Source of the DNA: a virus
Lineage: Duplodnaviria; Heunggongvirae; Uroviricota; Caudoviricetes
IMG/VR virus record: IMGVR_UViG_2728369608_000005
Length of the DNA stretch: 36,144 nt
Reading direction: 5' to 3' (one strand)
Shown in pieces: positions 943 to 36,144 of this stretch. How positions within the stretch are numbered: the stretch's first letter is position 1; each line of letters starts with the position of its first letter. The translations under genes and the position numbers were made by a program. Under the pieces are notes generated by a model that saw nothing but the letters and a program-made list of their open reading frames with translations, did not search any database and was not told where the DNA came from.

Positions 943-944
943 GA

Positions 945-21146: not shown

Positions 21147-21691
21147 GAGGCAATCCCCAGAATTTCACGACGCAGCGCCTGTACCGCATCGGTTGACAGT
21201 CCACCCTTACGGGCAATTTTCTCGGCGTTGCTGGCCGCCTGCTGCGCTCTGGCCCGGACTTCAGACTGGAACTTCTTGAGGTTGACGGAAGCGCGGGACA
21301 GCGTGGCCACGTTCTTTGCCACCTTCGACAACAGCGCCACGCGCTCTTTGGGGTCGACTTCGCCTTCTTCCGCTTCCTGCAGCTGGACGATGCTCTCGAA
21401 CAGCTCGGTCTGAATCAGGGCGATCACCGCCTCCGAACGTGCATCCTGATCGTCAGCCGCACCTTCGGTCAGCATCCGGGCCGCTTCAGTGGCTGCACGG
21501 ATAGCGCCATAGCGGCGCTCAATCTTCTGGCCATAGCGATGGATAGCCGATTTGCTGATGACATAACCCTGCTCACGCAGCAGGGACTCCAGCTCGTTAT
21601 ACCCGCTGAAGCCGGATTCAGTCAGCGCCCGCTCAAGCCAGCGACGCACGTCTTCCGGCAGCTTTTCTATCGTGCTGCGTCTGGCCATCAT
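21143..21691 (-). CDS. Mu gp27-like protein (putative small terminase / DNA-binding)
   Basis: 182 aa, N-terminal motif EKLPEDVRRWLE...SKSAIHRY, directly upstream of large terminase. Confidence 0.65.
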   Translation of the reverse strand: MMARRSTIEKLPEDVRRWLERALTESGFSGYNELESLLREQGYVISKSAIHRYGQKIERRYGAIRAATEAARMLTEGAADDQDARSEAVIALIQTELFESIVQLQEAEEGEVDPKERVALLSKVAKNVATLSRASVNLKKFQSEVRARAQQAASNAEKIARKGGLSTDAVQALRREILGIAS

Positions 21692-21999
21692 TCACTCCAG
21701 TACTTTTCCGGGCGGGCGATGCCGGGGCCGCATTCCACGGTGTACTCAACCAGATCGACACCGAGGCGGGTCAGGTCGGCAAACCAGTCGCCGGAGGGTT
21801 TTTTCTCCAGATCAACCATTTTGCGATCAGCCAGATAATCCAGCTCACGGCGCAGTTCCAGCGGTGTGGTGTCCGGGTAGATGGCGCGGGACACGTCCAG
21901 CAGCAGCGTCTCGCTGGCGGTGTACGGGCGGGTTTTGTTCAGAGCAACCAGCAGACTCCAGCGCAGGGACTCCCGGCGCACGCGGGCGATATCAACCAT
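21688..21999 (-). CDS. Hypothetical late protein (gp26 position)
   Basis: 103 aa between the lysis cassette and the gp27-like gene. Confidence 0.5.
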   Translation of the reverse strand: MVDIARVRRESLRWSLLVALNKTRPYTASETLLLDVSRAIYPDTTPLELRRELDYLADRKMVDLEKKPSGDWFADLTRLGVDLVEYTVECGPGIARPEKYWSE

Positions 22000-22324
22000 T
22001 ACGACCTCCTGTATGGCGGTACTGCTGTACCAGTTCCAGTTTGTTGTAGAGCGCGTCCAGCTTGGCTTCGATGACCGTCTGGCCCCGGATATAATCCTCT
22101 CGGCGGACGTAGTTCAGCGGTAAATCCGCCTTAAACCGCATAAATTCTTTTTCCAGCTCGCCCCAGTTTGAGGCGGACTGCTGCAGCGACTGCTCAAGGG
22201 AGGCGAACCGCGCCGCCTGACGCTCTTCCGCTTTACTGAACAGCCATTTGGCTATGCCACCGACAAAGCTCATGAAGGTGATGAGGAAACCCACCACCGT
22301 CCAGAATTCAACCTGCAACGTCAT
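21992..22324 (-). CDS. Small membrane protein of the lysis cassette
   Basis: ATG at 22324 overlaps the upstream stop (ATGA); single N-terminal hydrophobic helix VVGFLITFMSFVGGIA. Confidence 0.5.
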   Translation of the reverse strand: MTLQVEFWTVVGFLITFMSFVGGIAKWLFSKAEERQAARFASLEQSLQQSASNWGELEKEFMRFKADLPLNYVRREDYIRGQTVIEAKLDALYNKLELVQQYRHTGGRNG

Positions 22325-22974
22325 TTCTGTAATCCTTCCCGTTCGTCCAGCAGACTGTTTATCTGGCTGCGCCAGCTGCGGCACTGCTTCGCGTTGTCGA
22401 TGATGTTGGCGAGGACGTCACGCTGAGAGATGCCTGAGTCGCGTAGCCAGGCGTCAGCGGTTTCAGGTCGCCCGGACGCTGCGCCAGTGCCGGTGCCAGC
22501 GGCGGCAGTTGCGTCTGAATGACCGGTGTCGACGGATGCGTTGTCATATCCGAGCGCGGCGTTGTACTGGCGCACGAAACCGCGAGTAAACACGCACTCA
22601 ATGGGATGGCTCTTACCTTTTTCATCAATCCAGCGCTGTGTGACATCGTTAATTTGCCCCTGTAGTTGTTTGTTCTGGCTCTCCAGTTGAGCAATCTGCT
22701 CAAGGTAACTGGCTTCAGCCTGCTGCCCGGCGGCTACCTGCTCCTGATACCGTTTTGCCCATGCTCGCAACGCAGCGTTCTCAAGCGTTGCCTGCTCCGT
22801 TTTGTATGTGTCGAATGCTGACTGCAACTCACTGATCGCCTTATCGCCGTCGCGCGTGGCGTTTTCATGCCCGCTTTTGTAGCCCAGGTAATAAAGTCCA
22901 ATCAGAAAAGCATTTATGAGCACTGCCAGCAGCAGACTGCGCCACGGCAGATTTTTTAGCAGGTTAGTCCACAC
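22321..22974 (-). CDS. i-spanin (Rz-like)
   Basis: 217 aa, N-terminal transmembrane helix then Q/A/E-rich coiled-coil region; downstream of endolysin. Confidence 0.6.
   Translation of the reverse strand: MWTNLLKNLPWRSLLLAVLINAFLIGLYYLGYKSGHENATRDGDKAISELQSAFDTYKTEQATLENAALRAWAKRYQEQVAAGQQAEASYLEQIAQLESQNKQLQGQINDVTQRWIDEKGKSHPIECVFTRGFVRQYNAALGYDNASVDTGHSDATAAAGTGTGAASGRPETADAWLRDSGISQRDVLANIIDNAKQCRSWRSQINSLLDEREGLQK
22359..22625 (-). CDS. Candidate embedded o-spanin (Rz1-like lipoprotein)
   Basis: ORF in a different frame inside the i-spanin gene: MKKVRAIPLSACLLAVSC lipobox-like signal followed by a Pro/Thr/Ser-rich tail. Confidence 0.4.
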   Translation of the reverse strand: MKKVRAIPLSACLLAVSCASTTPRSDMTTHPSTPVIQTQLPPLAPALAQRPGDLKPLTPGYATQASLSVTSSPTSSTTRSSAAAGAAR

Positions 22975-23692
22975 AGCTGCCGCCCCCCCATGTCAGATAA
23001 CGGGGGGCCAGTTCGTGCAGGATGCGCTGCGGATAATGACGGTTCTCCCGCCAGTTGGCAGTGCTGCGTCCGGCATTCACCGTGGCGACATGACCAAACC
23101 AGCGGGTGCTGTCCAGCCCCTGCTGCGAGGCCAGCCTCTTGTCCCGCTGTACCCAGCCCAGACCGCCGTTATAGCCCGACAGCGTCATGGCCATACGCTC
23201 GCAGCCGTTGGCGGCGCTGACGCGCTGCCACAGCCAGCGGTCATAACTGACCAGCGCCCGGATGGCCCATGCCGGATTAAACGGCTCACGGCTGTTAAGC
23301 CCCGGCATCAGCTGGCTTATCCAGTCGGCGGTGGCGGGCATAAACTGGGCCAGCCCCTGAGCGCCAGCCGGCGAGACCGCATCAGGTCGCCAGCCGCTTT
23401 CCTGATGCAGTTGCGCGGCGAAATCGGCCACTGGCGCAGACAGTCCCCATTCAAGCCGGGCATTACGGATCACATCATCGCGATACTGCAGCGCAGCCTG
23501 CGGAGGCTGCGCTGCGCGGGCCTGACTGAAGAAGCCGCCACACCAGAGCAGCCAGACAATCACCAGGTTGCCAGCAAGCTGCCACCAGAAGCTGTATTTA
23601 TCGTTACGTGGTTCTCCGTGTCTGATGGCGGTTACGCCCAGACCAAAGGCAAGCAGGATGATGAGGGTGATTTGAGGCCAGTTCATGGTCAC
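22964..23692 (-). CDS. Endolysin, lytic-transglycosylase (SLT) type with N-terminal hydrophobic segments
   Basis: SLT motif ESGWRPDAVSPAGAQGLAQFMP; two N-terminal hydrophobic stretches. Confidence 0.75.
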   Translation of the reverse strand: MTMNWPQITLIILLAFGLGVTAIRHGEPRNDKYSFWWQLAGNLVIVWLLWCGGFFSQARAAQPPQAALQYRDDVIRNARLEWGLSAPVADFAAQLHQESGWRPDAVSPAGAQGLAQFMPATADWISQLMPGLNSREPFNPAWAIRALVSYDRWLWQRVSAANGCERMAMTLSGYNGGLGWVQRDKRLASQQGLDSTRWFGHVATVNAGRSTANWRENRHYPQRILHELAPRYLTWGGGSCVD

Positions 23693-24039
23693 AGTCCTGT
23701 TGCCACAGCCAGACAGACCGCTGCAACAATCAGTGCACGGCGGATTAACGCAGCAGAAAATACAAGGTGAAGGCCGGTCTGCACAGGGAAGCGACCATCA
23801 GCCATCAGCCTGTCATCATGCTTCAGGTACTGACCGGGACGGGCTTTGGGGAAAAGCGAACGGTCAAGCCAGTAGCCCAATACTGCCGCCAGCGTGATGA
23901 GTGACAGCTTGTAGACAACCACCGGCAGCTGCTGGGGCGATACCAGACCGATGGTGCCGAGCAGCAGCACTGAGGTCAGCAGCCAGCCGCTGAGACGTGG
24001 CTTTTTAACAGGGGGAATGAATTTTTTCAGGTTTTTCAT
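23689..24039 (-). CDS. Holin-like membrane protein
   Basis: 116 aa with 2-3 predicted transmembrane helices, first gene of the late arm; AAGGAG Shine-Dalgarno 5 nt upstream. Confidence 0.6.
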   Translation of the reverse strand: MKNLKKFIPPVKKPRLSGWLLTSVLLLGTIGLVSPQQLPVVVYKLSLITLAAVLGYWLDRSLFPKARPGQYLKHDDRLMADGRFPVQTGLHLVFSAALIRRALIVAAVCLAVATGL

Positions 24040-24170
24040 GGGTGTCTCCTTGTTGTGTGGGAGACAGCATCACAAATGTGGCGGGATACGGATTTTAAAG
24101 CGCGTTATAAGTGTTCGCAGAGGGAAGCGGCCAGAATGGTGGCACACAAAACACAGGGGAGGCAAGCACG

Positions 24171-24494
24171 ATGACTGAACCGAAACAGACCGGTCTTAAA
24201 AAAGGGTTCCTCTTTGGGATCAGAACCGGAGAGCAGAATAAAACTTACACGCTAAGCGTGGATGCCAGTTGCCCAACCGAGGCGATTGCAGAACTGAGAA
24301 ACGCGCTGACGGCGCTTGAAACGCGAAGCAGCCATTTCGCCAGCGGAGAAAACAACGTCATGATGATTGGCAATGTGGCGGCGACATCACGATATAAAGC
24401 CGTACCTAATCCTACTACTCAGTTATCCGGCGACCAACGAAGACTGGAAGCGGAATCAGCAGTTCCCAGAACGGTTCTTCCTCACCAGTCTTAA
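24171..24494 (+). CDS. Hypothetical small protein (108 aa)
   Basis: ATG preceded by GGGGAGG at 8-nt spacing; divergent from the holin; last 80 bp overlap the 188-aa gene. Confidence 0.3.
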   Translation: MTEPKQTGLKKGFLFGIRTGEQNKTYTLSVDASCPTEAIAELRNALTALETRSSHFASGENNVMMIGNVAATSRYKAVPNPTTQLSGDQRRLEAESAVPRTVLPHQS

Positions 24495-24981
24495 CCGGGG
24501 CCGCTTCTCCCGCCCAGTAAAGCCAGGCCCGGTGATATAATTCCAGCACCGGGCAATCACTGTTCAATAACCTCATATCTCCGCGATGCACCGGCTCATC
24601 TGTGATTACTTCATATATCGGTGCCGTTCTGATTTCGTCTTCGCCTCTCTCATCGGCCAGTAATGCCCGGAACTTCCTGACTTCACTCAGATGCTGACAG
24701 GCAAACAGTGACTGATAGCGGGAAGGTTTGTCAGGAAAATGGCTACGGCGAACTAACTCAAACACCAGACCGACCAGCAGACTTCTGCTGACTCCACTGT
24801 CATCTTCCATTTTAGGGCCGGGGTTATAGAGATAGTTATGACCGTGCTTGGAAAGACCATCGGGATACATCTGATGAAGGAAAGCGGCCAGCTCCGGCGC
24901 TTCAGGTTCGTATTTTCCGGTAATTACATGGCAAGGCGAAGGCAGACGATTAGCGGAATCAAGTGTGTAATACGTTCCCAT
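24415..24981 (-). CDS. Hypothetical protein (188 aa), unknown function
   Basis: ATG-initiated ORF immediately upstream of the lysis/late arm; no family recognised. Confidence 0.55.
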   Translation of the reverse strand: MGTYYTLDSANRLPSPCHVITGKYEPEAPELAAFLHQMYPDGLSKHGHNYLYNPGPKMEDDSGVSRSLLVGLVFELVRRSHFPDKPSRYQSLFACQHLSEVRKFRALLADERGEDEIRTAPIYEVITDEPVHRGDMRLLNSDCPVLELYHRAWLYWAGEAAPVKTGEEEPFWELLIPLPVFVGRRITE

Positions 24982-25224
24982 TCAGAAAACAATCCTTATC
25001 GAACAAACACTGCACGTAGGTAACACATCCAGTAAATCGCGTTAATAGAAAACAGTTATCCATAAGCCTCATCCTGACAATGAAAGAACGACCAGCCCGG
25101 TGCGGTAACACCAGGCTGGTCATCAACCCACAGGTATGCACTGTGAGCCGACCAGGGTTCAGTCAGTCTCGCGAGACCAGACTAGCCTGCCATATTTTCA
25201 CTGATTGCAAAAGGCTTACGGATA

Positions 25225-25995
25225 ATGAAAGAACAATCTTTACCCATCGTTCCATGGATTGGCGGCAAACGTCGTCTGGCTAAGCATATTCTGCCGCTGT
25301 TCCCGGCCCATACCTGCTATGTGGAGCCGTTCTGTGGGGCCGCTGCGCTCTATTTTCTTAAGACACCCAGCAAGACCGAAGTCATTAACGATATCAACGG
25401 GGAACTGGTGAACCTCTATCGGGTGGTCAAGCATCATCTGGAAGAATTTGTTCGCCAGTTCAAATGGGCGCTGGTCAGCCGTCAGATTTACAAATGGTTG
25501 CAGGATACGCCGGAAGAAACTCTCACCGACATTCAGCGGGCGGCCCGGTTCTACTACCTGCAGAAACAGGCGTTTGGCGGCAAGGTGGCCGATCACTCGT
25601 TCGGAACCTCCACCACAAGTGCGCCGCGCTTTAACCTCCTGCGCATCGAAGAAGAACTGTCGATGGCACACCTGCGCCTGTCGAGAACGCTGATAGAGCA
25701 TCTGGACTGGCACCAGTGCATAGAGCGATATGATCGCCCGCATACGCTGTTCTACTGTGACCCACCATACTGGGGAACAGAGGGCTATGGTGTGGAGTTC
25801 GGGCTGGAAAACTATGATCACATGGCAGATTTAGCGCGAAGGATCAAAGGGAAGATGATTATATCAGTGAACGATATCCCGGAAATGCGGCAGGTATTCA
25901 ACGGTCTGAACATGCAGTCGGTTGATATCAGCTACAACCTTAAGGTAACAGGTAAACCCAGCCCGAAGAAAGAGCTGGTAATTTGTAATTTTTGA
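25225..25995 (+). CDS. DNA adenine methyltransferase, Dam family, no adjacent restriction gene
   Basis: N-terminal PWIGGKRRL and FCGAAALYF motifs and catalytic DPPY (FYCDPPYWGT). Confidence 0.85.
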   Translation: MKEQSLPIVPWIGGKRRLAKHILPLFPAHTCYVEPFCGAAALYFLKTPSKTEVINDINGELVNLYRVVKHHLEEFVRQFKWALVSRQIYKWLQDTPEETLTDIQRAARFYYLQKQAFGGKVADHSFGTSTTSAPRFNLLRIEEELSMAHLRLSRTLIEHLDWHQCIERYDRPHTLFYCDPPYWGTEGYGVEFGLENYDHMADLARRIKGKMIISVNDIPEMRQVFNGLNMQSVDISYNLKVTGKPSPKKELVICNF

Positions 25996-26008
25996 AAGAG
26001 GTAGTTAA

Positions 26009-26036
26009 AGGTGGTGGTGCATCTGCAGCACCACCT
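26009..26036. terminator. Hairpin between convergent Dam and lipoprotein genes (possible bidirectional terminator)
   Basis: AGGTGGTGGTGCA / TGCAGCACCACCT, 13-bp stem with one mismatch; weak T-tracts on both sides. Confidence 0.4.
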
Positions 26037-26042
26037 AAACAT

Positions 26043-26576
26043 TTAATCCTGCCTTGGACAAGTCCAATAATCATTATCTGGCTCTGGTGAATAAGCTTTC
26101 AAACAACCTGCTCGCGGGGTCTTACCATCATCTGTCATAGGAACTTTTTCCTTATCAAGTTTCACGGTCAGGTCTCCACCAGGAACATCCGTTTTATCGA
26201 AAAAAACAGCCTGACATGCTGATTTAGATATTTTCACTTCGTGGGCATTATTTGATATGAACAAATAACAATTATGACCAGAGGCTATGTAGTCACTTGG
26301 AATATTATTTTCGTCTTTAATATGAAACTGCACCGTTGTCACCGGGCGTTCGCTATCCTCGGATACTTCGACTTTTTCAAAACTGTCCGCGTACTTATCC
26401 AGGCCGGGGAGTTGTTGGCGAATAAACGGTAATTCGCGATTTACAACCGGATTATCTGTTTCAACGCTAAAAACCGCGTGCTCCTTAGCTGTGGTGGACG
26501 TATCAGCAGGATCGGTATTATCTCCACACCCAGATAAAACAAATATCAACGGTAAAAATAATTTGCGCATAGTCAT
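26043..26576 (-). CDS. Lipoprotein moron (candidate lysogenic-conversion / superinfection-exclusion protein)
   Basis: Signal peptide with lipobox LSGC; gene visibly AT-rich versus surrounding phage DNA; 35 bp downstream of the repressor on the same strand. Second ATG at 26570 has better Shine-Dalgarno spacing. Confidence 0.75.
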   Translation of the reverse strand: MTMRKLFLPLIFVLSGCGDNTDPADTSTTAKEHAVFSVETDNPVVNRELPFIRQQLPGLDKYADSFEKVEVSEDSERPVTTVQFHIKDENNIPSDYIASGHNCYLFISNNAHEVKISKSACQAVFFDKTDVPGGDLTVKLDKEKVPMTDDGKTPRAGCLKAYSPEPDNDYWTCPRQD

Positions 26577-26611
26577 GTCCTTATACCTCTAATGTTCTTA
26601 ATAGGAACAGA

Positions 26612-27022
26612 TTAACCCGTATTTTTTAATCTTTCGAACGCTGCGGACAGCTCCTTAAGCTGTTTTTCCATATCAATCATTCGCTGTTTTTCCTCAGCGC
26701 CTCGCAGCAACTCTTTTCGCACCTCTGGCTCCAGTTGGTTGAGCAGCTCCAATAACTTCAGATCAGACTGGTTGAAATGCTGCTCCTGATTAGCTGGCTG
26801 TGCTTTCTCTACCCCAACAGCTTCCCCTTTACCAGTAAGTAGCCAATCTATTGATATGTTCAAATGGGTGCTTAGCGCAACAAGAGCCTCTGCATTAGGT
26901 TCTCTCTCTCCACGCAGATAGTTTTGAAGTGAGCGATATGGAATTTTTGACAAGTCTGACAATGCCTTAATTGTCAGACCCTTAGCATCCATCGCTTCGC
27001 GCAATCTCTCTTTTATACTCAT
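26612..27022 (-). CDS. Phage repressor, XRE-family HTH
   Basis: Internal ATG at 27022 (MSIKERLREAMDAKGLTIKALSDLSKIPYRSLQNYLRGER, 136 aa); divergent from the early operon. Confidence 0.75.
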   Translation of the reverse strand: MSIKERLREAMDAKGLTIKALSDLSKIPYRSLQNYLRGEREPNAEALVALSTHLNISIDWLLTGKGEAVGVEKAQPANQEQHFNQSDLKLLELLNQLEPEVRKELLRGAEEKQRMIDMEKQLKELSAAFERLKNTG

Positions 27023-27038
27023 TTGAACATATCTCAAT

Positions 27039-27066
27039 TTGACATACCCGTTTGGGTGCGTACAAT
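27039..27066 (+). promoter_or_regulatory. Candidate early promoter (sigma-70 type) for the ner-A-B operon
   Basis: TTGACA (27039..27044), 16-bp spacer, TACAAT (27061..27066); AGGAA Shine-Dalgarno 10 nt before the ATG at 27111. Confidence 0.5.
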
Positions 27067-27110
27067 AGACCCAATAGAGTACATCATAACCCAACAGGAA
27101 CACGGTGCAT

Positions 27111-27335
27111 ATGAACAAACAACAAGTTCGGGCACGGCTGGTTGAAAGAGGCAGTAGCTTGCGCCAGTTCGCGCTTAACGCGGGCTATGAGCCACGAACA
27201 GTCACCCAGGCTGTCAGCCGCTGGGCAGGCAAAAGCGAACTTCCACGCGGTCGTTTGACTTATCGGATTTTGCGAGACCTTTCGGTCGCAATAGGCAAAG
27301 AAGTTACCCCCGGCATCCTCAAGGAGGCGTCATGA
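27111..27335 (+). CDS. ner: Ner-like DNA-binding protein
   Basis: 74 aa; LRQFALNAGYEPRTVTQAV pattern resembles Mu Ner; first gene of the early operon. Confidence 0.65.
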   Translation: MNKQQVRARLVERGSSLRQFALNAGYEPRTVTQAVSRWAGKSELPRGRLTYRILRDLSVAIGKEVTPGILKEAS

Positions 27336-27637
27336 GTAAACCAAATACATCAAGCTCAGGTACCCGTATTTTGCGTGTCCTTAAGGCTTTACGCGGTCAC
27401 GCTCTGAACGGTGTTTCTAACGGCGAGCTGGCGTCAGCTCTGGGCGAGTCCCCGGCGAATATCAATCGGGCGCTCAATACCCTTATCGAAGAAGGACTGG
27501 CCCTGAAACTGGATAACGGGCGTTTTGCCCCAGGAGTCCAGCTCTTACAAATCGCCATGGCGCACAGTACCGAAATGGCGCGGGCGCAGGATCGTATCAA
27601 TGAAATTAACCAGCGTGTTATGGCTGGTAGTCGCTAA
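27332..27637 (+). CDS. Winged-HTH DNA-binding protein (IclR-N-like, no effector domain)
   Basis: 101 aa; RILRVLKAL...GVSNGELASALGESPANINRALNTLIEEGLA; ATGA overlap with ner. Confidence 0.55.
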   Translation: MSKPNTSSSGTRILRVLKALRGHALNGVSNGELASALGESPANINRALNTLIEEGLALKLDNGRFAPGVQLLQIAMAHSTEMARAQDRINEINQRVMAGSR

Positions 27638-27646
27638 GGAGTTGAA

Positions 27647-28555
27647 ATGGGACGCACAAAATCACAACCAGTTGAACTAGTGGAAGATGCACCGCTGACC
27701 GATGGTCTCAGTGTCAGTCTTAATGCTATGTCCGAACATCGCCTCGAAATCATGCAGCAGTTTGGTGATGGCCTGCCGTATGAACGTGATCGTATTGTCC
27801 ATGAAACACGTTTTTATATGGCTCAGAGTGCTGAAGCCATGCTGGAGGCGGGTAAACGACTGGTAATTCTCAAAGAAAATGAACCACATGGTGACTTCAT
27901 CGACATCGTTGAGTCTCAGTTGTCCCTATCCAAACGTACCGCGCAGGTGATGATGCAAGCATCCCTCAAATATTTGTCTCCCAAGCTTGAACCAAAAGCG
28001 CAAGCGCTTGCGCTTTTGGGTAAAACAAAGCTGTTTGAGTTGATGACGGAAGATGACGAAGACCTCGTCGAATTAGCCGATGGCGGCACGATTGCTGGTA
28101 TGAGCCTCGATGATATTGATCGCATGACAAGCCGCGAACTGAAAGCGGCCCTACGCGAAGCGCGTGAAACCAACGCAGCACAACAGCGCGTGCTTGCCGA
28201 CAAAAACGAAAAAATCGACTCGCTTTCCACAAAACTGGAGAAGAAATCCCGTATCCAGCCGCCCAAGCCTGACGAAGAGGTGAAGAAGCTGCGTGCGGAA
28301 GTTACAGCGTTAGCGGTTGAGGCGGAATCTGCCATCGCCGTTCGACTGTCCAGCGCCTTTGAGACCCTGTGCGCATACTGTGCTGAAAATATGATTGATA
28401 CCCCCAGAGACTTTATGGCCGGTCTGGTCTGCCAGTTGGAAAGCACCGCGCGTAGCCTGCGCTCCACATTTGACCTGCCGGACGAGCCGACAGGCAACGC
28501 CGCCCCTTCATGGCTGACTGACCCGACGCCAGAGATTAACGGGCAGGAGGCATAA
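27647..28555 (+). CDS. Conserved Mu-like early protein upstream of transposase (possibly DUF3102-like)
   Basis: 302 aa with a charged coiled-coil centre; family name recalled, not verified. Confidence 0.5.
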   Translation: MGRTKSQPVELVEDAPLTDGLSVSLNAMSEHRLEIMQQFGDGLPYERDRIVHETRFYMAQSAEAMLEAGKRLVILKENEPHGDFIDIVESQLSLSKRTAQVMMQASLKYLSPKLEPKAQALALLGKTKLFELMTEDDEDLVELADGGTIAGMSLDDIDRMTSRELKAALREARETNAAQQRVLADKNEKIDSLSTKLEKKSRIQPPKPDEEVKKLRAEVTALAVEAESAIAVRLSSAFETLCAYCAENMIDTPRDFMAGLVCQLESTARSLRSTFDLPDEPTGNAAPSWLTDPTPEINGQEA

Positions 28556-28558
28556 CCC

Positions 28559-30328
28559 ATGAGTGCCGCCCTGACTGAACGACTGGTTTATGTTGCCCGC
28601 GCGGCACGTGACGCGGGGCATGGTAAGCGTGGTGCGATATATGATGCCGCCTGCGCCGAACTGGGCATTTCCCGCGCCACCCTGCTGCGCAAGCTGAAGG
28701 AGGTATCAGTGACTGACAAACGTAAAAAACGCGCCGATGCCGGGCGCAGTGCCCTGAGCCGCGACGAAGCCGCGCTGATATCTGCCACGCTGCGCGAGGC
28801 CACCCGTAAGAACGGTAAGCGCCTGTATTCCATCGCGGATGCGGTGGAGACCCTGCGGTCAAACGGCTTTATCACTGCTGGCAGAACGGACGAGGCCACA
28901 GGCGAGTTTTTCCCGCTGTCCGAGGACACCATCAGCCGCGCCCTGCGGAACTATGGTCTGCACCCGGAACAGCTTGACGCACCGGCCCCGTCGTCCGAGA
29001 TGGCCAGCCTGCATCCCAATCACGTCTGGGAGATTGATGCCTCACTTTGTACGCTTTACTACCTGAGCAACGGCCATAAAGGGTTGCAGGTGATGGACAG
29101 CTCGAAGTTCTACAAGAACAAGCCTGCCAACATCGCCCGCATCGCCAGTGACCGCGTGTGGAGTTACGAGATTACCGACCATACCAGCGGCTGGATTTAC
29201 GTTGAGTACGTGATGGGTGCGGAATCTGGTGAGAACCTCTGTTCTGTGCTTATCAACGCCATGCAGGAGCGCGGCGGCGCGGACGTGCTGCACGGCGTGC
29301 CGAAAATACTCTACCTTGATCCCGGTTCGGCGAACACCGCTGGCATGACGAAAAACATGTGCCGCTCGCTGGGCATCAATCTGATAGCGCACAAGCCGCA
29401 TAACGCCCGCGCCACCGGGCAGGTGGAAAAGGCCCGTGACATTATCGAACGTAAACTGGAGCCGGGTCTCAAATTCCAGCCGGTTCATAGCCTGGACGAA
29501 CTGAACGCGCTGGCGGTGAAATGGCGCAGCCACTTTAACGCCACGGCGGTCCACAGCCGCCACGGTAAAACCCGCACGGATATCTGGCTGAAGATTACTG
29601 CTGGCCAGCTGAAAAAAGCGCCATCCGTTGAGGTTTGCCGCGAACTGGCGGTGGCCGCACCGGAACTCCGTAAGGTCACACCAAAACTGCGCGTCTCGTT
29701 CCGGGGCAATGAGTTTGACGTTTCGACGGTACCGGGCGTACTGGTCGGCGAAAAACTGATGATTACCCGTAACCCGTGGCGCAGCGATGTGGCGCAGGTG
29801 GTGCTGACCGGTGAGGACGGTCACGAGACGTTCTTCCTAGTCGAGGAGGTCAGAAAGAACGAGTTCGGCTTTGCCGAAAGCGCGGCGGTATTTGGCGAAA
29901 ACTACAAAGCCCTGCCGGAGACCCCGGCGCAGACGGCGGCAAAAGAAATCGAAGAGCTGGTTACGGGCACCGATAACGCCACCGATGCAGCTGCTGCACG
30001 CAAGGCGAAGGCGCTGCCGTTCGGCGGGCGACTTGACCCGTACAAACATATCGACGACACCACGCTTCCGGCCTATATGCCGAAGCGCGGTCAGGCTTCA
30101 GACGTGCGCGGGCCGCGTATTGAGCAGCGTCCGCTGACCCATGTGGAGGCGGCGAAAGCCCTGCGCGAGAAGTTTGGCGCTAACGGCCATATCTGGACGC
30201 CGGAACATTACCGCCAGTTAACGGCACAGTACCCGGACGGCGTACCGGAAGCCGCTCTGGATGAGGTCATGGTCACCCTGACCACTCCGGCCCGCAACAG
30301 CGTTATCAGCATCGTTAACGGTAACTGA
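28559..30328 (+). CDS. DDE transposase (Mu A-like function)
   Basis: 589 aa; candidate DDE residues in HVWEIDAS, LYLDPGSANT and a downstream Glu; followed by the B-like ATPase. Confidence 0.8.
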   Translation: MSAALTERLVYVARAARDAGHGKRGAIYDAACAELGISRATLLRKLKEVSVTDKRKKRADAGRSALSRDEAALISATLREATRKNGKRLYSIADAVETLRSNGFITAGRTDEATGEFFPLSEDTISRALRNYGLHPEQLDAPAPSSEMASLHPNHVWEIDASLCTLYYLSNGHKGLQVMDSSKFYKNKPANIARIASDRVWSYEITDHTSGWIYVEYVMGAESGENLCSVLINAMQERGGADVLHGVPKILYLDPGSANTAGMTKNMCRSLGINLIAHKPHNARATGQVEKARDIIERKLEPGLKFQPVHSLDELNALAVKWRSHFNATAVHSRHGKTRTDIWLKITAGQLKKAPSVEVCRELAVAAPELRKVTPKLRVSFRGNEFDVSTVPGVLVGEKLMITRNPWRSDVAQVVLTGEDGHETFFLVEEVRKNEFGFAESAAVFGENYKALPETPAQTAAKEIEELVTGTDNATDAAAARKAKALPFGGRLDPYKHIDDTTLPAYMPKRGQASDVRGPRIEQRPLTHVEAAKALREKFGANGHIWTPEHYRQLTAQYPDGVPEAALDEVMVTLTTPARNSVISIVNGN

Positions 30329-30338
30329 GGAGGAAGGC

Positions 30339-31505
30339 ATGCTGGTACTGAAGCAACAACTGAAAGAGGCCCGCATCCCGCAGGCGGCGGTGGCAAGAGC
30401 CGTCGCCGTTTCCGAGGCCACGCTGGCCCAGATTGTGAACCATAACGAGTGGCCCCGCACCAGCCCCGAAGAGGTACGCCAGCGTCTGGCGTTGTATCTG
30501 GAAAGTAAGGGGATTGATACAGCGAAAAGTTTTGATGCTGCACAGGGCGCTGTCACACCCCGTACAGCGGGTACTACCGATAAAACCAACCTCAGTGAGG
30601 AAGAGAACATGTTACTCAAAAAGCAGGTGTTATTTCCAGCAACCAAAAAAGCGTTTGGTCTTTTCCGTGACCCGTTCGCCGATGAAGCCATGCAGGGCGC
30701 GGACGATGTGTTCACCACGCCGGATATCCGCTACGTGCGTGAGGCGCTGTTCCAGACCGCCCGCCACGGTGGCTTTCTGGCGGTTATCGGCGAGTCCGGT
30801 GCGGGTAAATCCACGCTGCGCCGCGACCTGATTGAACGCGTCAACCGCGAGAACGCGCCGGTGATTGTTATCGAGCCATACATCATCGCCATGGAAGACA
30901 ACGACGTGAAGGGCAAAACCCTGAAGGCGGCAGCTATCGCCGAGGCCATCATCAGCACCATCGCGCCGCTGGAGAGTATCAAACGCAGCCAGGACGCCCG
31001 TTTCCGCCAGTTGCACCGCGTCCTGAAGGACAGCAGTCAGGCGGGTTTTAGCCACGTTCTGGTGATTGAGGAGGCCCACAGTCTGCCCATTCCGACGCTG
31101 AAGCACCTCAAACGCTTCTTTGAGCTGGAATCCGGCTTCAAAAAACTGCTGTCCATCGTGCTGATTGGCCAGCCTGAGCTGGCGGACAAACTGTCCGAAC
31201 GCAACATGGAAGTCCGTGAGGTCGTCCAGCGCTGCGAGGTGGTTGAACTGCTGCCGCTGGACAACAGCCTCGAAGAGTTTCTGACGTTCAAACTGCAACG
31301 CGCCGGTAAGCAGCTGTCTGACATCATGGACGCCAGCGCAGTGGAAGCCGTCCGCGCCCGTCTGAGCAATCTGGGCAGCAACCGTAAAAGCATGGTCAGC
31401 CTGCTGTATCCGCTGGCCGTCAGTAACCTGGTGATAGCCGCCATGAATCTGGCTGCTGAAATCGGGGTTCCGCAGGTCAACGCCGACGTCGTCAAAGGAG
31501 TTTAA
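30339..31505 (+). CDS. Transposition ATPase (Mu B-like, AAA+)
   Basis: 388 aa; N-terminal HTH-like region; Walker A GESGAGKST; Walker B-like VLVIEEAH. Confidence 0.8.
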   Translation: MLVLKQQLKEARIPQAAVARAVAVSEATLAQIVNHNEWPRTSPEEVRQRLALYLESKGIDTAKSFDAAQGAVTPRTAGTTDKTNLSEEENMLLKKQVLFPATKKAFGLFRDPFADEAMQGADDVFTTPDIRYVREALFQTARHGGFLAVIGESGAGKSTLRRDLIERVNRENAPVIVIEPYIIAMEDNDVKGKTLKAAAIAEAIISTIAPLESIKRSQDARFRQLHRVLKDSSQAGFSHVLVIEEAHSLPIPTLKHLKRFFELESGFKKLLSIVLIGQPELADKLSERNMEVREVVQRCEVVELLPLDNSLEEFLTFKLQRAGKQLSDIMDASAVEAVRARLSNLGSNRKSMVSLLYPLAVSNLVIAAMNLAAEIGVPQVNADVVKGV

Positions 31506-31507
31506 TC

Positions 31508-31777
31508 ATGAAATCCATCGCCGATATCAACCAGCAGATGAACAAGGTGCAGTCCGCCATTATGGCGCTCAACGCCATGAACACTACCGTGCAGAGCGTC
31601 ATGATTGCTGGCAGTAAGCCGGTTATCCGTATCGCCCGCAACGGGCACTGTGCCCGCCTGCTGGAGCAGGGCAAAGCGAGTTATACCCATGTTGGCCATG
31701 ACGGCTCAGGGCGCTTCCGTCAGGGCGTCTTTGAGTTGCATGGCTGCCGTATTACCTGGTCAGAGTCGTTACATTAA
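31508..31777 (+). CDS. Hypothetical early protein
   Basis: 89 aa, starts 3 bp after the B-like stop. Confidence 0.5.
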   Translation: MKSIADINQQMNKVQSAIMALNAMNTTVQSVMIAGSKPVIRIARNGHCARLLEQGKASYTHVGHDGSGRFRQGVFELHGCRITWSESLH

Positions 31778-31794
31778 CCATAAGGTGAACAGAG

Positions 31795-32406
31795 ATGAGC
31801 GAAGTAAATAAAGAAAACTACATGAAAGACCGCAAGGGGCGTCTGGTGCCGGTTGACCAGGTGTCTGACTATGACCTTGCGATGGACTCTTTCGTTAAAG
31901 AACAGGTTGCCGCCGCGAAGGTTAAACGCGATGAACTCAGCGACTTCAAGCGTCGTGCCTTTGACGAGTGCTATGCCTGGCTTGACCTTGTGGCCGAGAA
32001 GTACGGCAGAACACGCGGCGGTGCCAAAGGCAACGTGACCTTCAGCAGCTTCGACGGTGCTCAGCAGATCACCATCCGCGTGCAGGAAACCCTGACCTTC
32101 GGGCCAGAGCTGCAGATTGCCAAAGACCTGATAGACGAGTGCGTCACCGAGTGGTCGGAAGGCGCGAACGCCAACCTGCGGGCCATCATCAGCGATGCTT
32201 TTCAGGTGGACAAAGAGGGCCAGCTTAATACCGGACGTATTCTTTCCCTGCGCCGCGTCAAGATTCAGGACGAGCGCTGGAACCGGGCAATGGAGGCTAT
32301 ATCGGAATCACTGCAAGTGGCAATGTCCAAAACCTATATTAATTTCCGGGAGAAAGATAAACACGGGAAGCTAATTAATATCCCGTTAGATATCGCTGCC
32401 ATTTAA
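31795..32406 (+). CDS. Conserved Mu-like early protein (possibly DUF3164-like)
   Basis: 203 aa; family name recalled, not verified. Confidence 0.5.
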   Translation: MSEVNKENYMKDRKGRLVPVDQVSDYDLAMDSFVKEQVAAAKVKRDELSDFKRRAFDECYAWLDLVAEKYGRTRGGAKGNVTFSSFDGAQQITIRVQETLTFGPELQIAKDLIDECVTEWSEGANANLRAIISDAFQVDKEGQLNTGRILSLRRVKIQDERWNRAMEAISESLQVAMSKTYINFREKDKHGKLINIPLDIAAI

Positions 32407-32484
32407 TTTTAATTCAATTTCTTTTTATTTCGGCGTCAGCGCTGTGGGTTTCTGCACGCCGAAAACAGCATTAAGGAATAAAAC

Positions 32485-32673
32485 ATGTCCATCAAATGTA
32501 CCAACTGCCAGAAAGGTATCACCACCCTGAAGTTCAGCGACGCCAGCGTCATTACCTCCGGTAAGTACCGTGTGCCAGCCGTCCTCATCACGCTGGTATG
32601 CCCTCACTGCAGCCAGCATTACTACACCGAAGTTCCGGCCATGGAGTTCATCCCCTGCGAGGCAAAAAAATGA
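32485..32673 (+). CDS. Small zinc-ribbon protein
   Basis: 62 aa with CxxC (CTNC) ... CxxC (CPHC). Confidence 0.55.
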   Translation: MSIKCTNCQKGITTLKFSDASVITSGKYRVPAVLITLVCPHCSQHYYTEVPAMEFIPCEAKK

Positions 32674-32966
32674 AAGGCATGAAATTATATAACCGCTCCA
32701 CTATATACAATCTGGCCCTGAAAACCTTTGGCCCTGAAGCACAGGCGCTGAAGCTGATGGAAGAAGCCGCCGAGCTGGCCGCTGCTGCCGCCCGCAACAT
32801 GAACGGACTGGGCAGTGAAGTTGATCTGGCTGGCGAACTGGCTGACGTTGAAATCATGATTGAACAGTTCCGCCTCAACGGGATGGGCCTGATGATTGAT
32901 TTTCATAAGCAGAAAAAGCTGGAACGCCTTGCCGAACGCCTGGGGGTGACTTATGCCGCAGAATAA
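32670..32966 (+). CDS. MazG-like nucleotide pyrophosphohydrolase (small all-alpha type)
   Basis: 98 aa from the ATG at 32670 (ATGA overlap); EEAAEL and ELADVEIM metal-binding-like motifs. Confidence 0.55.
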   Translation: MKGMKLYNRSTIYNLALKTFGPEAQALKLMEEAAELAAAAARNMNGLGSEVDLAGELADVEIMIEQFRLNGMGLMIDFHKQKKLERLAERLGVTYAAE

Positions 32967-33642
32967 TGAAAAGCTGCTGGAGAAGTTAAAAAAGCTGCTG
33001 GCGCTGGCTAAATCTGACAACCCCCATGAAGCTGCACTGGCCCTACAACGCGCCCAGAAGCTGATGCAGGCCTATAACATCACCCAGGCTGACCTCGCAC
33101 TCAGCGATATTGATGAAAGCGTCAGTCACTACTGGGCAGCAGGTAGCGTTAACCCACCGCGATACATGCTGGGTCTGCTGGATATTATCCAGGTGGCATT
33201 TGGCGTTAAGTCTATTATTCACTCCGGCTTTAAACCCAGCGTTGGTTTTTACGGTAATAAAGACCGGGTTGAACTGGCCTCATATACATGGGAGGTACTG
33301 GCCAGACAATTAATCGTGGCCCGTAAAAACTATATTCGACAGCAGAATAAAAGAATCAAAAACACGACCAAGACCAGTCGTGGTGACAAGTTTGCCGAAG
33401 GCTGGGTTCTGGCCGTGCGCAGCGAGGTTCATTTATTTGCTATGTCCCGCGAAGAACGGGAGCTGGCAAGCCTCTGGCTTGAACAAAAATACCCTGACTC
33501 AGGCACAACTACGGGCCGTGGGGCCGGGAAGTCACGTGACGCAGACATGTCCCGCCACATCGGTTACAGAGAAGGGGAAAACGTCCGCCTGCATCAGCCC
33601 GTTGGCGGGCAGGAGCAGCATAAACTGAGGGCTGAAAGATGA
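32953..33642 (+). CDS. Conserved early protein with DUF2786-like N-terminus
   Basis: 229 aa; N-terminal LLEKLKKLLALAKSDNPHEAALALQRAQKLMQAYNI. Confidence 0.5.
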   Translation: MPQNNEKLLEKLKKLLALAKSDNPHEAALALQRAQKLMQAYNITQADLALSDIDESVSHYWAAGSVNPPRYMLGLLDIIQVAFGVKSIIHSGFKPSVGFYGNKDRVELASYTWEVLARQLIVARKNYIRQQNKRIKNTTKTSRGDKFAEGWVLAVRSEVHLFAMSREERELASLWLEQKYPDSGTTTGRGAGKSRDADMSRHIGYREGENVRLHQPVGGQEQHKLRAER

Positions 33643-33866
33643 TGTTATCGCGTAAGAAGAAAGCACCGAACCCTTGTCGTACAGCTGCTAAATATCTTTT
33701 TGCTCGCGCCTTTTTTAAGAACGTAAGGCCCGGCATTCAAATTGGCATTATTGCTGGACGAGAGCAGGTTAAAAATTACATGTCAGGTGCATGGTGGAAT
33801 AACGATCCGGTTACTACAGCCCGTAACATTCATATTAACTGGGGTGGGATTCATTATGATGGCTGA
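33639..33866 (+). CDS. Hypothetical small basic protein
   Basis: 75 aa, ATGA-coupled to the upstream gene. Confidence 0.4.
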   Translation: MMLSRKKKAPNPCRTAAKYLFARAFFKNVRPGIQIGIIAGREQVKNYMSGAWWNNDPVTTARNIHINWGGIHYDG

Positions 33867-34071
33867 ATCAATTGTATGTGCCCTGTTCTGGTATGGTCTC
33901 GTGGGGTGGTGTACTGCTGAACTGCACCGCCGCTCAGGTTTTTACTCACGTTACAGCGGTGCCGGACACTGGATCAGTTGGGCCGTTATGTTCATGTGCT
34001 GGCCTGTTGCGCTTCCTTTATATGTCGATTATATCGGTGGCGCAGGTAAAAGGAGCGACGATGATGACTAA
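33856..34071 (+). CDS. Small membrane protein
   Basis: ATG at 33856; hydrophobic Trp-rich segments (ALFWYGLVGW, WAVMFMCWPVALPLYV). Confidence 0.45.
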   Translation: MMAESIVCALFWYGLVGWCTAELHRRSGFYSRYSGAGHWISWAVMFMCWPVALPLYVDYIGGAGKRSDDDD

Positions 34072-34489
34072 GCAGCGTCTTATTCAACTCATCCATATTG
34101 CCCGCAATGACCTCCAGATGGATGAGGACACCTACCGCCAGATGCTACAGGGGCTGACCGGCAAAGCCTCAACCAAAGGGATGGATACCCCACAGCTAAA
34201 CCGCGTGCTGGAATCCATGAAAAATAAAGGCTTTCGCATTAAGCCTGCCGGGAAAGCCAAGTCCGGCTTACCGCTGGATAGTCATCCGCAGTCAAAGAAA
34301 ATCCGTGCGCTATGGCTTGAAATGGCTGCCGCAGGCATCGTCCGAGACAGTTCAGAGCAGGCGCTGGCGCTGTGGGTTAAACGGGAAACAGGCATCAGCG
34401 CGTTACGCTGGCTCAGCAATGAGCAGGCAAGTAGCGTGATTGAGAAACTGAAGAAGTGGCAGCGCAGAGCTGCGGGAGTGAAGCAATGA
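34061..34489 (+). CDS. gemA: GemA-like regulatory protein (Mu gp16-like)
   Basis: ATG at 34061 after AGGAG; RLIQLIHIARNDLQMDEDTYRQML ... KKIRALW ... ALRWLSNEQASSVIEKLKKWQ. Confidence 0.75.
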   Translation: MMTKQRLIQLIHIARNDLQMDEDTYRQMLQGLTGKASTKGMDTPQLNRVLESMKNKGFRIKPAGKAKSGLPLDSHPQSKKIRALWLEMAAAGIVRDSSEQALALWVKRETGISALRWLSNEQASSVIEKLKKWQRRAAGVKQ

Positions 34490-34875
34490 GTGACCTGAAT
34501 CAGTTTCGTAGTAAAGGGCCGGAACTGTTGGTAGAACTGGCACAGCATACCTCTGAGACCGTCCGCGAGATTATTGATATCGAACCCGCAGTTGCCGACC
34601 AGATTGGTCAGGCCGTCGCGAACCGCATGATGCAGGTCTGGGGTGGGCAAAACGTCTATTTTCCGATGGGCATGGTCTGGAAGGTCAGTCAGCGCGACCG
34701 GGAAATCTTCCTGGAGTTTGACGGACGCAACCATCACGAACTGGCCCGCAAATTCGGTGTTTCACTACAGTGGGTTTACAGCGTGGTGAAGCGGGTCAGA
34801 AAAGAAGAATTGGATCGGATGCAGGGCAAACTGTTTGATGGTGACTCTGATTCAGAGAAGGTGGAAAATAGCTAA
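34486..34875 (+). CDS. mor: Mor/C-family transcriptional activator
   Basis: 129 aa from the ATG at 34486; GGQNVYFP ... REIFLEFDGRNHHELARKFGVSLQWVYSVVKRVR. Confidence 0.75.
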   Translation: MSDLNQFRSKGPELLVELAQHTSETVREIIDIEPAVADQIGQAVANRMMQVWGGQNVYFPMGMVWKVSQRDREIFLEFDGRNHHELARKFGVSLQWVYSVVKRVRKEELDRMQGKLFDGDSDSEKVENS

Positions 34876-34894
34876 GCTATTTATAGGAGGACAG

Positions 34895-35224
34895 ATGGCC
34901 AGACCAAGCAATATTGATAAACTGCCAGAGGATGTTCGTGCCGAGCTTCATAGCGAATTATCGCGCACAAACTTCACCGGTTATGAATGGCTCTCGCTCT
35001 GGTTAGCCGATAAAGGTTACAGCGTATCGAAGTCAGCCATTCAGCGTTATGCTGTCGCGAATAAAAATGAAATTCTGGGCCTACAGCAAGAGAGTCGATT
35101 CCATCAGGCACAGCTTCGACTTAATGCGCTTGGTGTAGCGGCAACAATTTCACCAGGAAAAGACCTTGGAAGTTTGAAGAATGATGCAGATGCACTACTA
35201 AAATGGGCGTTGTTTGGTTACTGA
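34895..35224 (+). CDS. gp27-N-terminal-like paralog (DNA-binding?), last gene before the prophage end
   Basis: ATG at 34895 after AGGAGG; N-terminus IDKLPEDVRAELHSEL...SKSAIQRY parallels the gp27-like protein at 21143..21691. Confidence 0.55.
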   Translation: MARPSNIDKLPEDVRAELHSELSRTNFTGYEWLSLWLADKGYSVSKSAIQRYAVANKNEILGLQQESRFHQAQLRLNALGVAATISPGKDLGSLKNDADALLKWALFGY

Positions 35225-35230
35225 ATGAGT

Positions 35231-35256
35231 GGGGGGCATCGTCCCCCTTAATTTTC
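35231..35256 (+). terminator. Rho-independent terminator at the end of the early operon
   Basis: GGGGGG-catcgt-CCCCC hairpin followed by TTAATTTT, directly after the stop at 35224. Confidence 0.5.
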
Positions 35257-35320
35257 ATATACTGTAAATGAATTACATAACCTTTTGTTTGTCTCTTCCC
35301 ATCACGTACCATAAAGTCCC

Positions 35321-35356
35321 ATTTATCTTACGGTACCCCCTATATTTATCTCACGT
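35321..35356. repeat. Terminal direct repeats, candidate transposase-binding sites
   Basis: ATTTATCTTACGG (35321..35333) and ATTTATCTCACGT (35344..35356); element ends ...TCTAATCA at 35363. Confidence 0.5.
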
Positions 35357-35363
35357 CTAATCA

Positions 35364-36144
35364 GGCGGCGAAAGTGGGCGGCATTGTTGCCAACAACACC
35401 TATCCGGCAGATTTCATCTACCAGAACATGATGATTGAGAGCAACATCATTCACGCCGCGCATCAGAACGACGTGAACAAACTGCTGTTTCTCGGATCGT
35501 CCTGTATCTACCCGAAACTGGCAAAACAGCCGATGGCAGAAAGCGAGTTATTGCAGGGTACGCTGGAGCCGACTAACGAGCCTTATGCTATTGCCAAAAT
35601 CGCCGGGATCAAACTGTGCGAATCTTACAACCGCCAGTATGGACGCGATTATCGCTCGGTCATGCCGACCAACCTGTATGGCCCGCATGACAACTTCCAC
35701 CCGAGTAATTCGCATGTGATCCCTGCATTGCTGCGTCGCTTCCACGAGGCGACGGCACAGAATGCACCGGACGTGGTGGTGTGGGGCAGCGGTACACCGA
35801 TGCGCGAATTTCTGCACGTCGATGATATGGCGGCGGCGAGCATTCATGTGATGGAGCTGGCGCACGAAGTCTGGCTGGAGAACACCCAACCGATGCTGTC
35901 GCACATTAACGTCGGCACGGGCGTTGACTGCACTATCCGCGAGCTGGCGCAAACCATCGCCAAAGTGGTGGGTTACAAAGGTCGGGTGGTTTTTGATGCC
36001 AGTAAACCGGATGGTACACCGCGCAAACTGCTGGATGTGACACGCCTGCATCAGCTTGGCTGGTATCACGAAATCTCACTGGAAGCGGGGCTCGCCAGCA
36101 CTTACCAGTGGTTCCTTGAGAATCAAGACCGCTTTCGGGGGTAA
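35364..36144 (+). pseudogene. fcl: GDP-L-fucose synthase gene, 5'-truncated by the prophage insertion
   Basis: Reading frame from 35365 encodes [26 protein letters not shown]... to the C-terminus ...[11 protein letters not shown]; the N-terminal ~62 codons are absent from the window. Confidence 0.85.

What the first reader, a model, noticed from the sequence alone, without database searches (positions are those of the whole stretch)
35364..36144. Prophage insertion disrupts fcl, a colanic-acid biosynthesis gene
Only the last ~259 codons of GDP-L-fucose synthase are present downstream of the junction. Insertion after about codon 62 should abolish GDP-fucose synthesis and colanic acid production, with possible effects on capsule, biofilm and phage adsorption.
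Basis: partly seen in the sequence, partly recalled or inferred. Interest (0 to 1): 0.5.

Follow-up and report, generated by a model that had tools for sequence, protein, structure and literature searches.

The report
Transposable prophage splits colanic-acid gene fcl
A 35.6-kb Mu-like (BcepMu-type) transposable prophage has inserted cleanly into fcl, the GDP-fucose synthase gene of the colanic-acid operon of E. coli NCCP15653. Both gene halves are recovered, so this is a real but ordinary case of insertional gene inactivation by a mutator-type phage.

Summary
Window 35364-36144 is fcl nucleotides 186-966 (codons 63-321 plus stop), 100% identical to intact E. coli fcl. It abuts the right terminus (…CTAATCA, 35363) of a prophage.

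The window is contig ATLY01000025.1 of E. coli NCCP15653 and does not hold the other junction. I found that junction on contig ATLY01000027.1 of the same assembly: wza…gmd, fcl nt 1-191, then the other phage terminus (TGATGCGCC…) and a Gin-like invertase. The two junctions share a 6-bp target duplication (GGCGGC). Removing the phage and one repeat rebuilds an intact fcl, and it matches strain MS 69-1 with 1 mismatch in 12,455 nt.

The phage is BcepMu-like: its transposase is 67.8% identical to BcepMu gp09 and its ends are TG…CA. Five related copies (right end 98.4-99.9% identical; whole-phage identity 94-99.9%) sit in five other genes in complete E. coli genomes, each with a 6-bp duplication.

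Loss of Fcl activity and polar loss of gmm–wcaM expression are inferred, not shown. A second fcl copy in this strain could not be tested directly; a close relative has none in its O-antigen cluster. This is a new instance of a textbook mechanism and deserves low interest.

The parts
35364..36144 (+). 3' fragment of fcl (GDP-L-fucose synthase), nt 186-966. In-frame codons 63-321 plus stop. It lacks the N-terminal Rossmann GxxGxxG part.
35364..35369 (+). Right-hand copy of the 6-bp target-site duplication GGCGGC (fcl nt 186-191). The left-hand copy is on contig ATLY01000027.1 (L017 10186-10191).
   Evidence: 6-bp duplications in five other insertions
503..35363 (.). Body of the BcepMu-like transposable prophage that lies in the window. 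The full element is 35,610 bp; the first 749 nt, with the Gin-like invertase, are on L017. Right terminus: …ATTTATCTCACGTCTAATCA.
28559..30328 (+). DDE (rve-type) transposase. 67.8% identical to BcepMu gp09, 69% to phiE255, 57% to Pseudomonas phage B3.
30339..31505 (+). AAA+ ATPase (ExeA/AAA_22), in the position of the transposition target-capture protein MuB.
26612..27022 (-). CI-type HTH repressor candidate, divergent from the early operon.
34486..34875 (+). Mor-family middle-gene transcription activator.
34895..35224 (+). Mu Gp27-family gene, the last phage gene before the right terminus.
35231..35247 (+). Terminator-like GC hairpin plus T-rich tail between the last phage gene and the phage end. 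It would limit read-out transcription into the fcl 3' fragment.
   Evidence: consensus scan only
1..502 (+). Exact reverse complement of 2423-2924, the constant 5' part of the tail-fibre gene. It is an assembly fold-back that represents the flipped state of the invertible tail-fibre segment, not a physical duplication.
480..502 (+). Din-type inversion crossover site CAAAAACCTTGGTTTGGGAGAAG. It is also present inverted at 2423-2445 and at the end of contig ATLY01000027.1.

Best explanation
A BcepMu-like (Mu-like) transposable temperate phage of 35,610 bp transposed into fcl, in the colanic-acid (cps/wca) operon of E. coli NCCP15653. Its DDE transposase joined the TG…CA phage ends to staggered cuts 6 bp apart in fcl, which duplicated GGCGGC (fcl nt 186-191). 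The gene is thereby split. One piece is a 5' piece (codons 1-63, reading on into phage DNA as a 99-aa chimeric ORF) that holds the NADP(H)-binding GxxGxxG motif. The other is a 3' piece (codons 63-321) that holds the catalytic Ser-Tyr-Lys residues. The two are 35.6 kb apart. Shown: the structure, both junctions, the duplication and the exact reconstruction. Inferred: neither piece can make GDP-L-fucose. The insertion also uncouples gmm, wcaI, cpsB, cpsG, wcaJ, wzxC, wcaK, wcaL and wcaM from the Rcs-controlled, RfaH-dependent promoter upstream of wza. The strain should therefore be unable to make colanic acid.
For: The window is identical to contig ATLY01000025.1 of GCA_001466755.1. The fcl 3' part has 0 mismatches in 781 nt against intact fcl. 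The reciprocal junction lies on ATLY01000027.1 of the same assembly, with gmd upstream and the phage invertase downstream. The left host sequence ends at fcl nt 191 and the right one starts at nt 186. Left plus right minus one repeat gives the intact 966-nt fcl, and matches the MS 69-1 wcaF-wcaL region with 1 mismatch in 12,455 nt. Five related prophage copies with the same termini lie in napH/napB, yahI, a lambdoid tail gene, pflD and dedA. Each has a perfect 6-bp duplication, and each interrupted gene lies in two halves, one on each side of the prophage. The transposase is 67.8% identical to BcepMu gp09 over 98% of its length. Published work states that BcepMu relatives have TG…CA termini and Tn552-related rve transposases (PMC2628397). 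Mu-type portal, Mor, Gp27, sheath and invertase domains are present. The prophage is 99.9% identical, without indels, to the copy in strain C31, so it is probably intact and recently mobile. The fragment aligns to residues 63-321 of solved Fcl. cps is an Rcs-controlled operon, and RfaH is needed for genes downstream of wzc (PMC3673037). A terminator-like hairpin sits just inside the phage right end.
Against: No phenotype or expression data exist. The genome paper does not mention colanic acid. The assembly is a draft, and the two junctions are on separate contigs that are joined only by inference through the inversion crossover site. The fraction of cells that carry the insertion cannot be measured without the reads. 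A second fcl elsewhere in NCCP15653 was not excluded. Internal promoters that could drive the downstream cps genes were not examined.
Confidence: 0.9

Rival explanations
1. The phage-fcl junction is an assembly chimera, for example from scaffolding, automatic gap filling or manual contig extension, and fcl is really intact.
For: The assembly used CLC, SSPACE, IMAGE and manual contig extension. The same contig does carry one assembly artefact, the 502-nt fold-back at its start.
Against: Two independent contigs carry reciprocal junctions at the same fcl position, with the 6-bp duplication that this phage makes at five other sites. A random mis-join would not reproduce that. The authors also report uniform read-mapping coverage.
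Confidence: 0.02
2. The insertion is real but present only in part of the sequenced culture, as a new transposition during spontaneous induction. Most cells would then keep an intact fcl.
For: Transposable phages replicate by transposition. The culture was heterogeneous for tail-fibre inversion.
Against: The assembler produced only the two junctions, not an intact fcl, at 171x coverage. The whole prophage assembled as single-copy sequence attached to fcl, as expected for the lysogenic site. No other junction for this phage was recovered: the chimeric product P0016 is on record on one contig only.
Confidence: 0.04
3. fcl is disrupted, but colanic acid and GDP-fucose synthesis persist. This would need a second fcl (for instance a gmd-fcl pair in the O-antigen cluster) and internal or phage promoters that express the downstream cps genes.
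For: Fcl and Gmd are listed among the E. coli O-antigen sugar-synthesis enzymes (PMC7685785), and from general knowledge some E. coli O-antigen clusters carry their own gmd and fcl. Rcs-independent cps transcription has been reported in strain K92. The remaining contigs of NCCP15653 could not be searched.
Against: Strain MS 69-1 is a close relative with 1 mismatch in 12.4 kb across this region, and its O-antigen cluster has no gmd or fcl. The megablast search with a 601-nt probe across the junction (337 nt of it fcl) found one place per genome at the median, including in the 100%-identical relative Z0117EC0056. The phage early operon that reads towards fcl is repressed in a lysogen and ends in a terminator-like hairpin.
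Confidence: 0.06

Closest known systems
Burkholderia phage BcepMu and its relatives (phiE255; Klebsiella phage KP12; Escherichia phages Phi06_2974 B and PhiKM)
   Same: The transposase is homologous (67.8% identity to BcepMu gp09, 97.8% to KP12, 99.8% to Phi06_2974 B). The termini are TG…CA. The early operon (transposase, ATPase, GemA, Mor, Gp27) is divergent from the lysis, head and P2-like tail genes. Mu-type portal and head genes are present.
   Different: The host is E. coli. The tail-fibre invertible segment and the accessory genes differ. The 6-bp duplication was measured here for the E. coli copies, not taken from the BcepMu literature.
Phage Mu insertional mutagenesis
   Same: A temperate phage inserts by DDE transposition at essentially arbitrary chromosomal sites, inactivates the target gene and is polar on the operon. 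It has a Mor activator and a Gin-type invertible tail-fibre segment.
   Different: The transposase is of the Tn552/BcepMu lineage, not MuA. The target duplication is 6 bp, against 5 bp for Mu (general knowledge). The gene order is divergent rather than co-linear.
Engineered or spontaneous colanic-acid-negative mutants (wca/cps, gmd, fcl knock-outs)
   Same: The expected outcome is the same: no GDP-L-fucose for the repeat unit and a non-mucoid phenotype.
   Different: This is a natural clinical isolate, and the lesion is a complete, probably active prophage rather than a point mutation, deletion or IS element.

Membership tests
GDP-L-fucose synthase (Fcl/WcaG, extended SDR) | Sequence match to the equivalog model and to the solved E. 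coli enzyme | tested here: met
   NF047922 E 2e-139 over profile 61-307; residues 63-321 of 1BSV/1BWS/1E6U; 100% nt identity to annotated fcl. The whole-protein score of 464 is below the 500 cut-off only because the N-terminus is missing.
GDP-L-fucose synthase (Fcl/WcaG, extended SDR) | A complete polypeptide that includes the N-terminal Rossmann GxxGxxG NADP(H)-binding motif (GHRGMVG, residues 10-16) | tested here: not met
   The motif lies in codons 1-62, which are on the other contig, 35.6 kb away. The window copy is a gene fragment, not a functional member.
GDP-L-fucose synthase (Fcl/WcaG, extended SDR) | Position between gmd and gmm in the colanic-acid cluster | tested here: met
   gmd lies directly upstream of the 5' piece. 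gmm, wcaI, cpsB, cpsG, wcaJ, wzxC, wcaK and wcaL lie downstream of the 3' piece.
BcepMu-like transposable phage | rve/DDE transposase homologous to BcepMu TnpA | tested here: met
   67.8% identity over 98% of the protein. The Pfam rve match scores 31.4, just under the 32.6 cut-off.
BcepMu-like transposable phage | 5'-TG…CA-3' termini | tested here: met
   TGATGCGCC… and …CTAATCA in all six copies. The criterion is taken from PMC2628397.
BcepMu-like transposable phage | Insertion at many different sites, each with a short target-site duplication | tested here: met
   Six insertions in six different loci, all with perfect 6-bp duplications.
BcepMu-like transposable phage | Replicative transposition and headful packaging with host DNA at the ends | not testable with these tools
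   This needs induction and sequencing of virion DNA.
Din-family (Gin/Cin/Pin) invertible tail-fibre switch | A serine invertase next to a segment bounded by inverted crossover sites that carries alternative tail-fibre C-termini and assembly genes | tested here: met
   Resolvase plus HTH_7 domains. The 23-nt site occurs at window 480-502, inverted at 2423-2445, and at the end of L017. Two tail-fibre ORFs share 169 of their first 174 residues and then diverge.

The most novel reading that the evidence does not exclude
The insertion may be selected rather than a neutral accident. On this reading, loss of fcl and of colanic acid is advantageous in some E. coli niches, for example in strains that already carry a K1 group 2 capsule. 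Independent early-truncating fcl alleles in other assemblies would fit that: Gln58→stop on several different sequence backgrounds, and Lys65→stop. The exact 256-aa downstream product that such alleles yield is on record in 113 collection blocks. If so, fcl would be a recurrent target of inactivation, and mobile phages would be one of the routes.
Probability: 0.08. Interest if true: 0.4.

Novelty: new member of a known kind. Interest (0 to 1): 0.2.

Why it matters
This is a clean natural example of a Mu-type phage acting as a mutator in a clinical E. coli isolate. The isolate is NCCP15653: phylogroup D, H18, with K1 kps genes. The insertion probably makes the strain unable to produce colanic acid, which matters to anyone who uses the strain for work on biofilm, stress tolerance, serum resistance or phage susceptibility.

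The strain's genome paper does not mention the lesion. The analysis also measures a 6-bp target duplication for the E. coli BcepMu-like phages and shows that essentially the same phage is mobile across unrelated E. coli lineages. Beyond that it illustrates a textbook mechanism and opens no new question.

Tried and rejected
- **Same junction in complete genomes.** I searched 5,426 complete E. coli genomes for the junction. None has it, and all matches stop at 35364.
- **Exact look-up of predicted chimeric products.** I predicted 5'-fcl/phage products for duplications of 4-7 bp. The 99-aa prediction failed because the phage end of this strain differs by three residues from the copy I used. A homology search then recovered it as P0016.
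- **The 63- and 64-aa products.** These were found and looked like the left junction. The 64-aa ones (…YLAAA) are explained by Lys65→stop alleles in other strains. The 63-aa product was not followed up.
- **A 7-bp or 5-bp duplication.** I considered both and rejected them. Five other insertions and the real left junction all give 6 bp with TG…CA ends.
- **Reaching the NCCP15653 O-antigen cluster.** I tried this to test for a second fcl, using an O-antigen protein of the relative MS 69-1. The database representative was a 520-aa partial, so no look-up of the source contig was possible.
- **Gln58→stop in complete genomes.** I tested whether this allele occurs there. There was no match for that sequence background. 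This search had no positive control.
- **Stevenson et al. 1996 on cps operon organisation.** The paper is not held. I used PMC3673037 instead.

Full report
**Observation**

The last 781 bases of the window (35364-36144) translate in frame to 259 residues plus a stop. These match the GDP-L-fucose synthase equivalog model over profile positions 61-307 of 308 (E 2e-139). They also match residues 63-321 of the solved E. coli enzyme (1BSV, 1BWS, 1E6U).

Against the intact fcl of strain 2016C-3878, the stretch equals nt 186-966 with no mismatch, and the base before 35364 already differs. A 601-nt probe across the junction matched 4,689 complete E. coli genomes, but only from 35364 onward. None of them carries the junction.

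**What lies upstream**

The sequence up to 35363 is phage DNA. Its genes include:
- a CI-type repressor;
- a DDE (rve) transposase;
- an AAA+ ATPase in the MuB position;
- GemA, Mor and Mu Gp27;
- a Mu-type portal, a contractile-tail sheath and a Dam-type methylase.

The transposase is 67.8% identical over 98% of its length to BcepMu gp09, 69% to phiE255 and 57% to Pseudomonas phage B3. It is 97.8-99.8% identical to Klebsiella phage KP12 and Escherichia phage Phi06_2974 B.

Five related prophages occur in complete E. coli genomes. Their right-end 1.5 kb is 98.4-99.9% identical to the window, and whole-phage identity ranges from about 94% to 99.9%. Each lies in a different place: the napH/napB junction, yahI, a lambdoid tail gene, pflD and dedA. 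In each case the interrupted gene lies in two halves, one on each side of the prophage. All five have the termini TGATGCGCC… and …CTAATCA, and all five have a perfect 6-bp target duplication. TG…CA ends and Tn552-related rve transposases are the published hallmarks of BcepMu relatives (PMC2628397). The element is therefore a BcepMu-like transposable phage that inserts by transposition at arbitrary sites.

**Source and the other junction**

The window is identical to contig ATLY01000025.1 of assembly GCA_001466755.1. This is E. coli NCCP15653, a phylogroup D strain with an untypable O antigen, H18 and K1 kps genes, isolated from a diarrhoea patient in Korea (PMC4765171). The genome paper reports 'six intact phages' but says nothing about colanic acid or fcl.

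The window starts inside the prophage. Positions 1-502 are the exact reverse complement of 2423-2924, which is the constant 5' part of the tail-fibre gene. This is an assembly fold-back caused by an invertible tail-fibre segment that was present in both orientations. The other junction therefore cannot be in the window.

I predicted the chimeric product of the 5' fcl piece reading into the opposite phage end, assuming a 6-bp duplication. A homology search returned one 99-aa protein at 97% identity and full coverage (P0016). It is encoded once, on contig ATLY01000027.1 of the same assembly, directly after wza-wzb-wzc-wcaABCDEF-gmd and overlapping a Gin-like invertase gene.

The junction reads …CTGGCGGCGGC|TGATGCGCCGCGCG…. 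The host sequence is identical to intact fcl for exactly 191 nt. The last 23 nt of that contig are the inversion crossover site CAAAAACCTTGGTTTGGGAGAAG, which also occurs at window 480-502 and, inverted, at 2423-2445. This links the two contigs through the prophage.

The 749 phage bases on that contig are identical to the copy in strain C31. The full prophage is 749 + 34,861 = 35,610 bp.

**Cleanness and age of the event**

The left host sequence ends at fcl nt 191 and the right one begins at nt 186, so GGCGGC is duplicated. Joining the two and removing one repeat gives the intact 966-nt fcl. The reconstructed wcaF-to-wcaL region differs from strain MS 69-1, which has an uninterrupted fcl, by 1 base in 12,455.

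Nine complete genomes are 100% identical (one of them 99.9%) to the 10 kb downstream of fcl. The upstream and downstream cps genes have normal lengths. The prophage is 99.9% identical, with no indels, to the copy in strain C31, and 99.8% to that in CFSAN051542. The insertion is therefore recent, the rest of the cluster is undamaged, and the phage is probably still functional.

**Mechanism and consequences**

Shown: a transposition event with a 6-bp staggered target cut split fcl between codons 62 and 64.

Inferred from the extended-SDR family and the solved Fcl structures:
- The 5' piece holds the GxxGxxG dinucleotide-binding motif (GHRGMVG, visible in the translation).
- The 3' piece holds the catalytic Ser-Tyr-Lys residues (…GSSCIYP…, …YAIAK…, visible).
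- Neither piece can be active on its own.

Also inferred: cps is transcribed as an Rcs-controlled operon, and RfaH antitermination is needed for the genes beyond wzc (PMC3673037). A 35.6-kb insertion should therefore be polar on gmm, wcaI, cpsB, cpsG, wcaJ, wzxC, wcaK, wcaL and wcaM. The phage early operon does read towards fcl, but it is repressed in a lysogen and ends in a terminator-like hairpin at 35231-35247 (a consensus scan only). The expected phenotype is inability to make colanic acid. No experiment bears on this.

**Rivals**

- *Mis-assembly.* This is very unlikely. The two junctions are reciprocal and carry the duplication length that this phage makes elsewhere.
- *A subpopulation insertion.* This cannot be excluded without the reads.
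- *A compensating second fcl.* This was not tested in NCCP15653 itself. The close relative MS 69-1 has no gmd or fcl in its O-antigen cluster. My attempt to reach the O-antigen region of the source contig failed. Because of the expected polarity, a second copy would probably not restore colanic acid anyway.

**Comparison with what is known, and verdict**

Insertional inactivation by transposable phages is the founding observation for phage Mu. BcepMu-like prophages in enterobacteria are also known. This particular insertion is absent from the strain's genome paper and from the one targeted literature search I ran on the topic.

It is a new instance of a known kind of event. It is useful as a strain annotation and as a measured 6-bp target duplication for this phage group, but it would not surprise a specialist. 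Interest 0.2.

Noticed in passing
window 1-502 and 2423-2924; crossover sites 480-502 and 2423-2445; L017 10918-10940: The contig begins with a perfect 502-nt inverted copy of the constant part of the tail-fibre gene. The window's first ORF (1-942) is therefore the 'flipped-state' fibre: constant part plus the alternative C-terminus. The sequenced culture evidently held both orientations, which implies that the prophage's Gin-like invertase is active in the lysogen.
   Followed up: yes
L001, L013, L014, L015, L016 (complete E. coli genomes): Related copies of this phage sit in five unrelated strains at five different loci (napH/napB, yahI, a lambdoid tail gene, pflD, dedA). Whole-phage identity to the window is 99.9% and 99.8% for two of them and about 94-96% over most of the length for the other three. 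Each has a 6-bp duplication, and each splits a host gene or gene junction. The phage family appears to be mobile in the E. coli population at present.
   Followed up: yes
L019 (NZ_CP132021.1, strain JCH8249, 40,540-bp 'plasmid'): A record deposited as a circular plasmid consists of this type of prophage plus about 5 kb of yahG-yahJ chromosomal flank. The insertion site is the same as in the chromosome of strain GON1437 from the same hospital. It is probably an assembly artefact, or an excised or amplified circle, rather than a true plasmid.
   Followed up: partly
L002, L007, L008, L010, L011 (fcl nt 172) and L009 (fcl nt 193): Other assemblies carry fcl with early nonsense mutations: CAG→TAG at codon 58 on several different synonymous backgrounds, and AAA→TAA at codon 65. 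The exact 256-aa downstream product is on record in 113 collection blocks. No complete E. coli genome matched the codon-58 allele in the background tested.
   Followed up: partly
L018 22169-24558 (strain MS 69-1): In the closest complete relative, the O-antigen flippase gene is truncated next to an IS1A copy. If NCCP15653 shares this, it could explain why its O antigen was reported as untypable from wzx/wzy.
   Followed up: no
window 24415-27022: There is a low-GC accessory region (0.43-0.50 GC, against 0.56-0.62 in the structural genes) between the lysis and regulatory modules. It holds a DUF2441 protein, a Dam-type adenine methylase and a 177-aa ORF of unknown function. This region differs between copies of the phage.
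   Followed up: no
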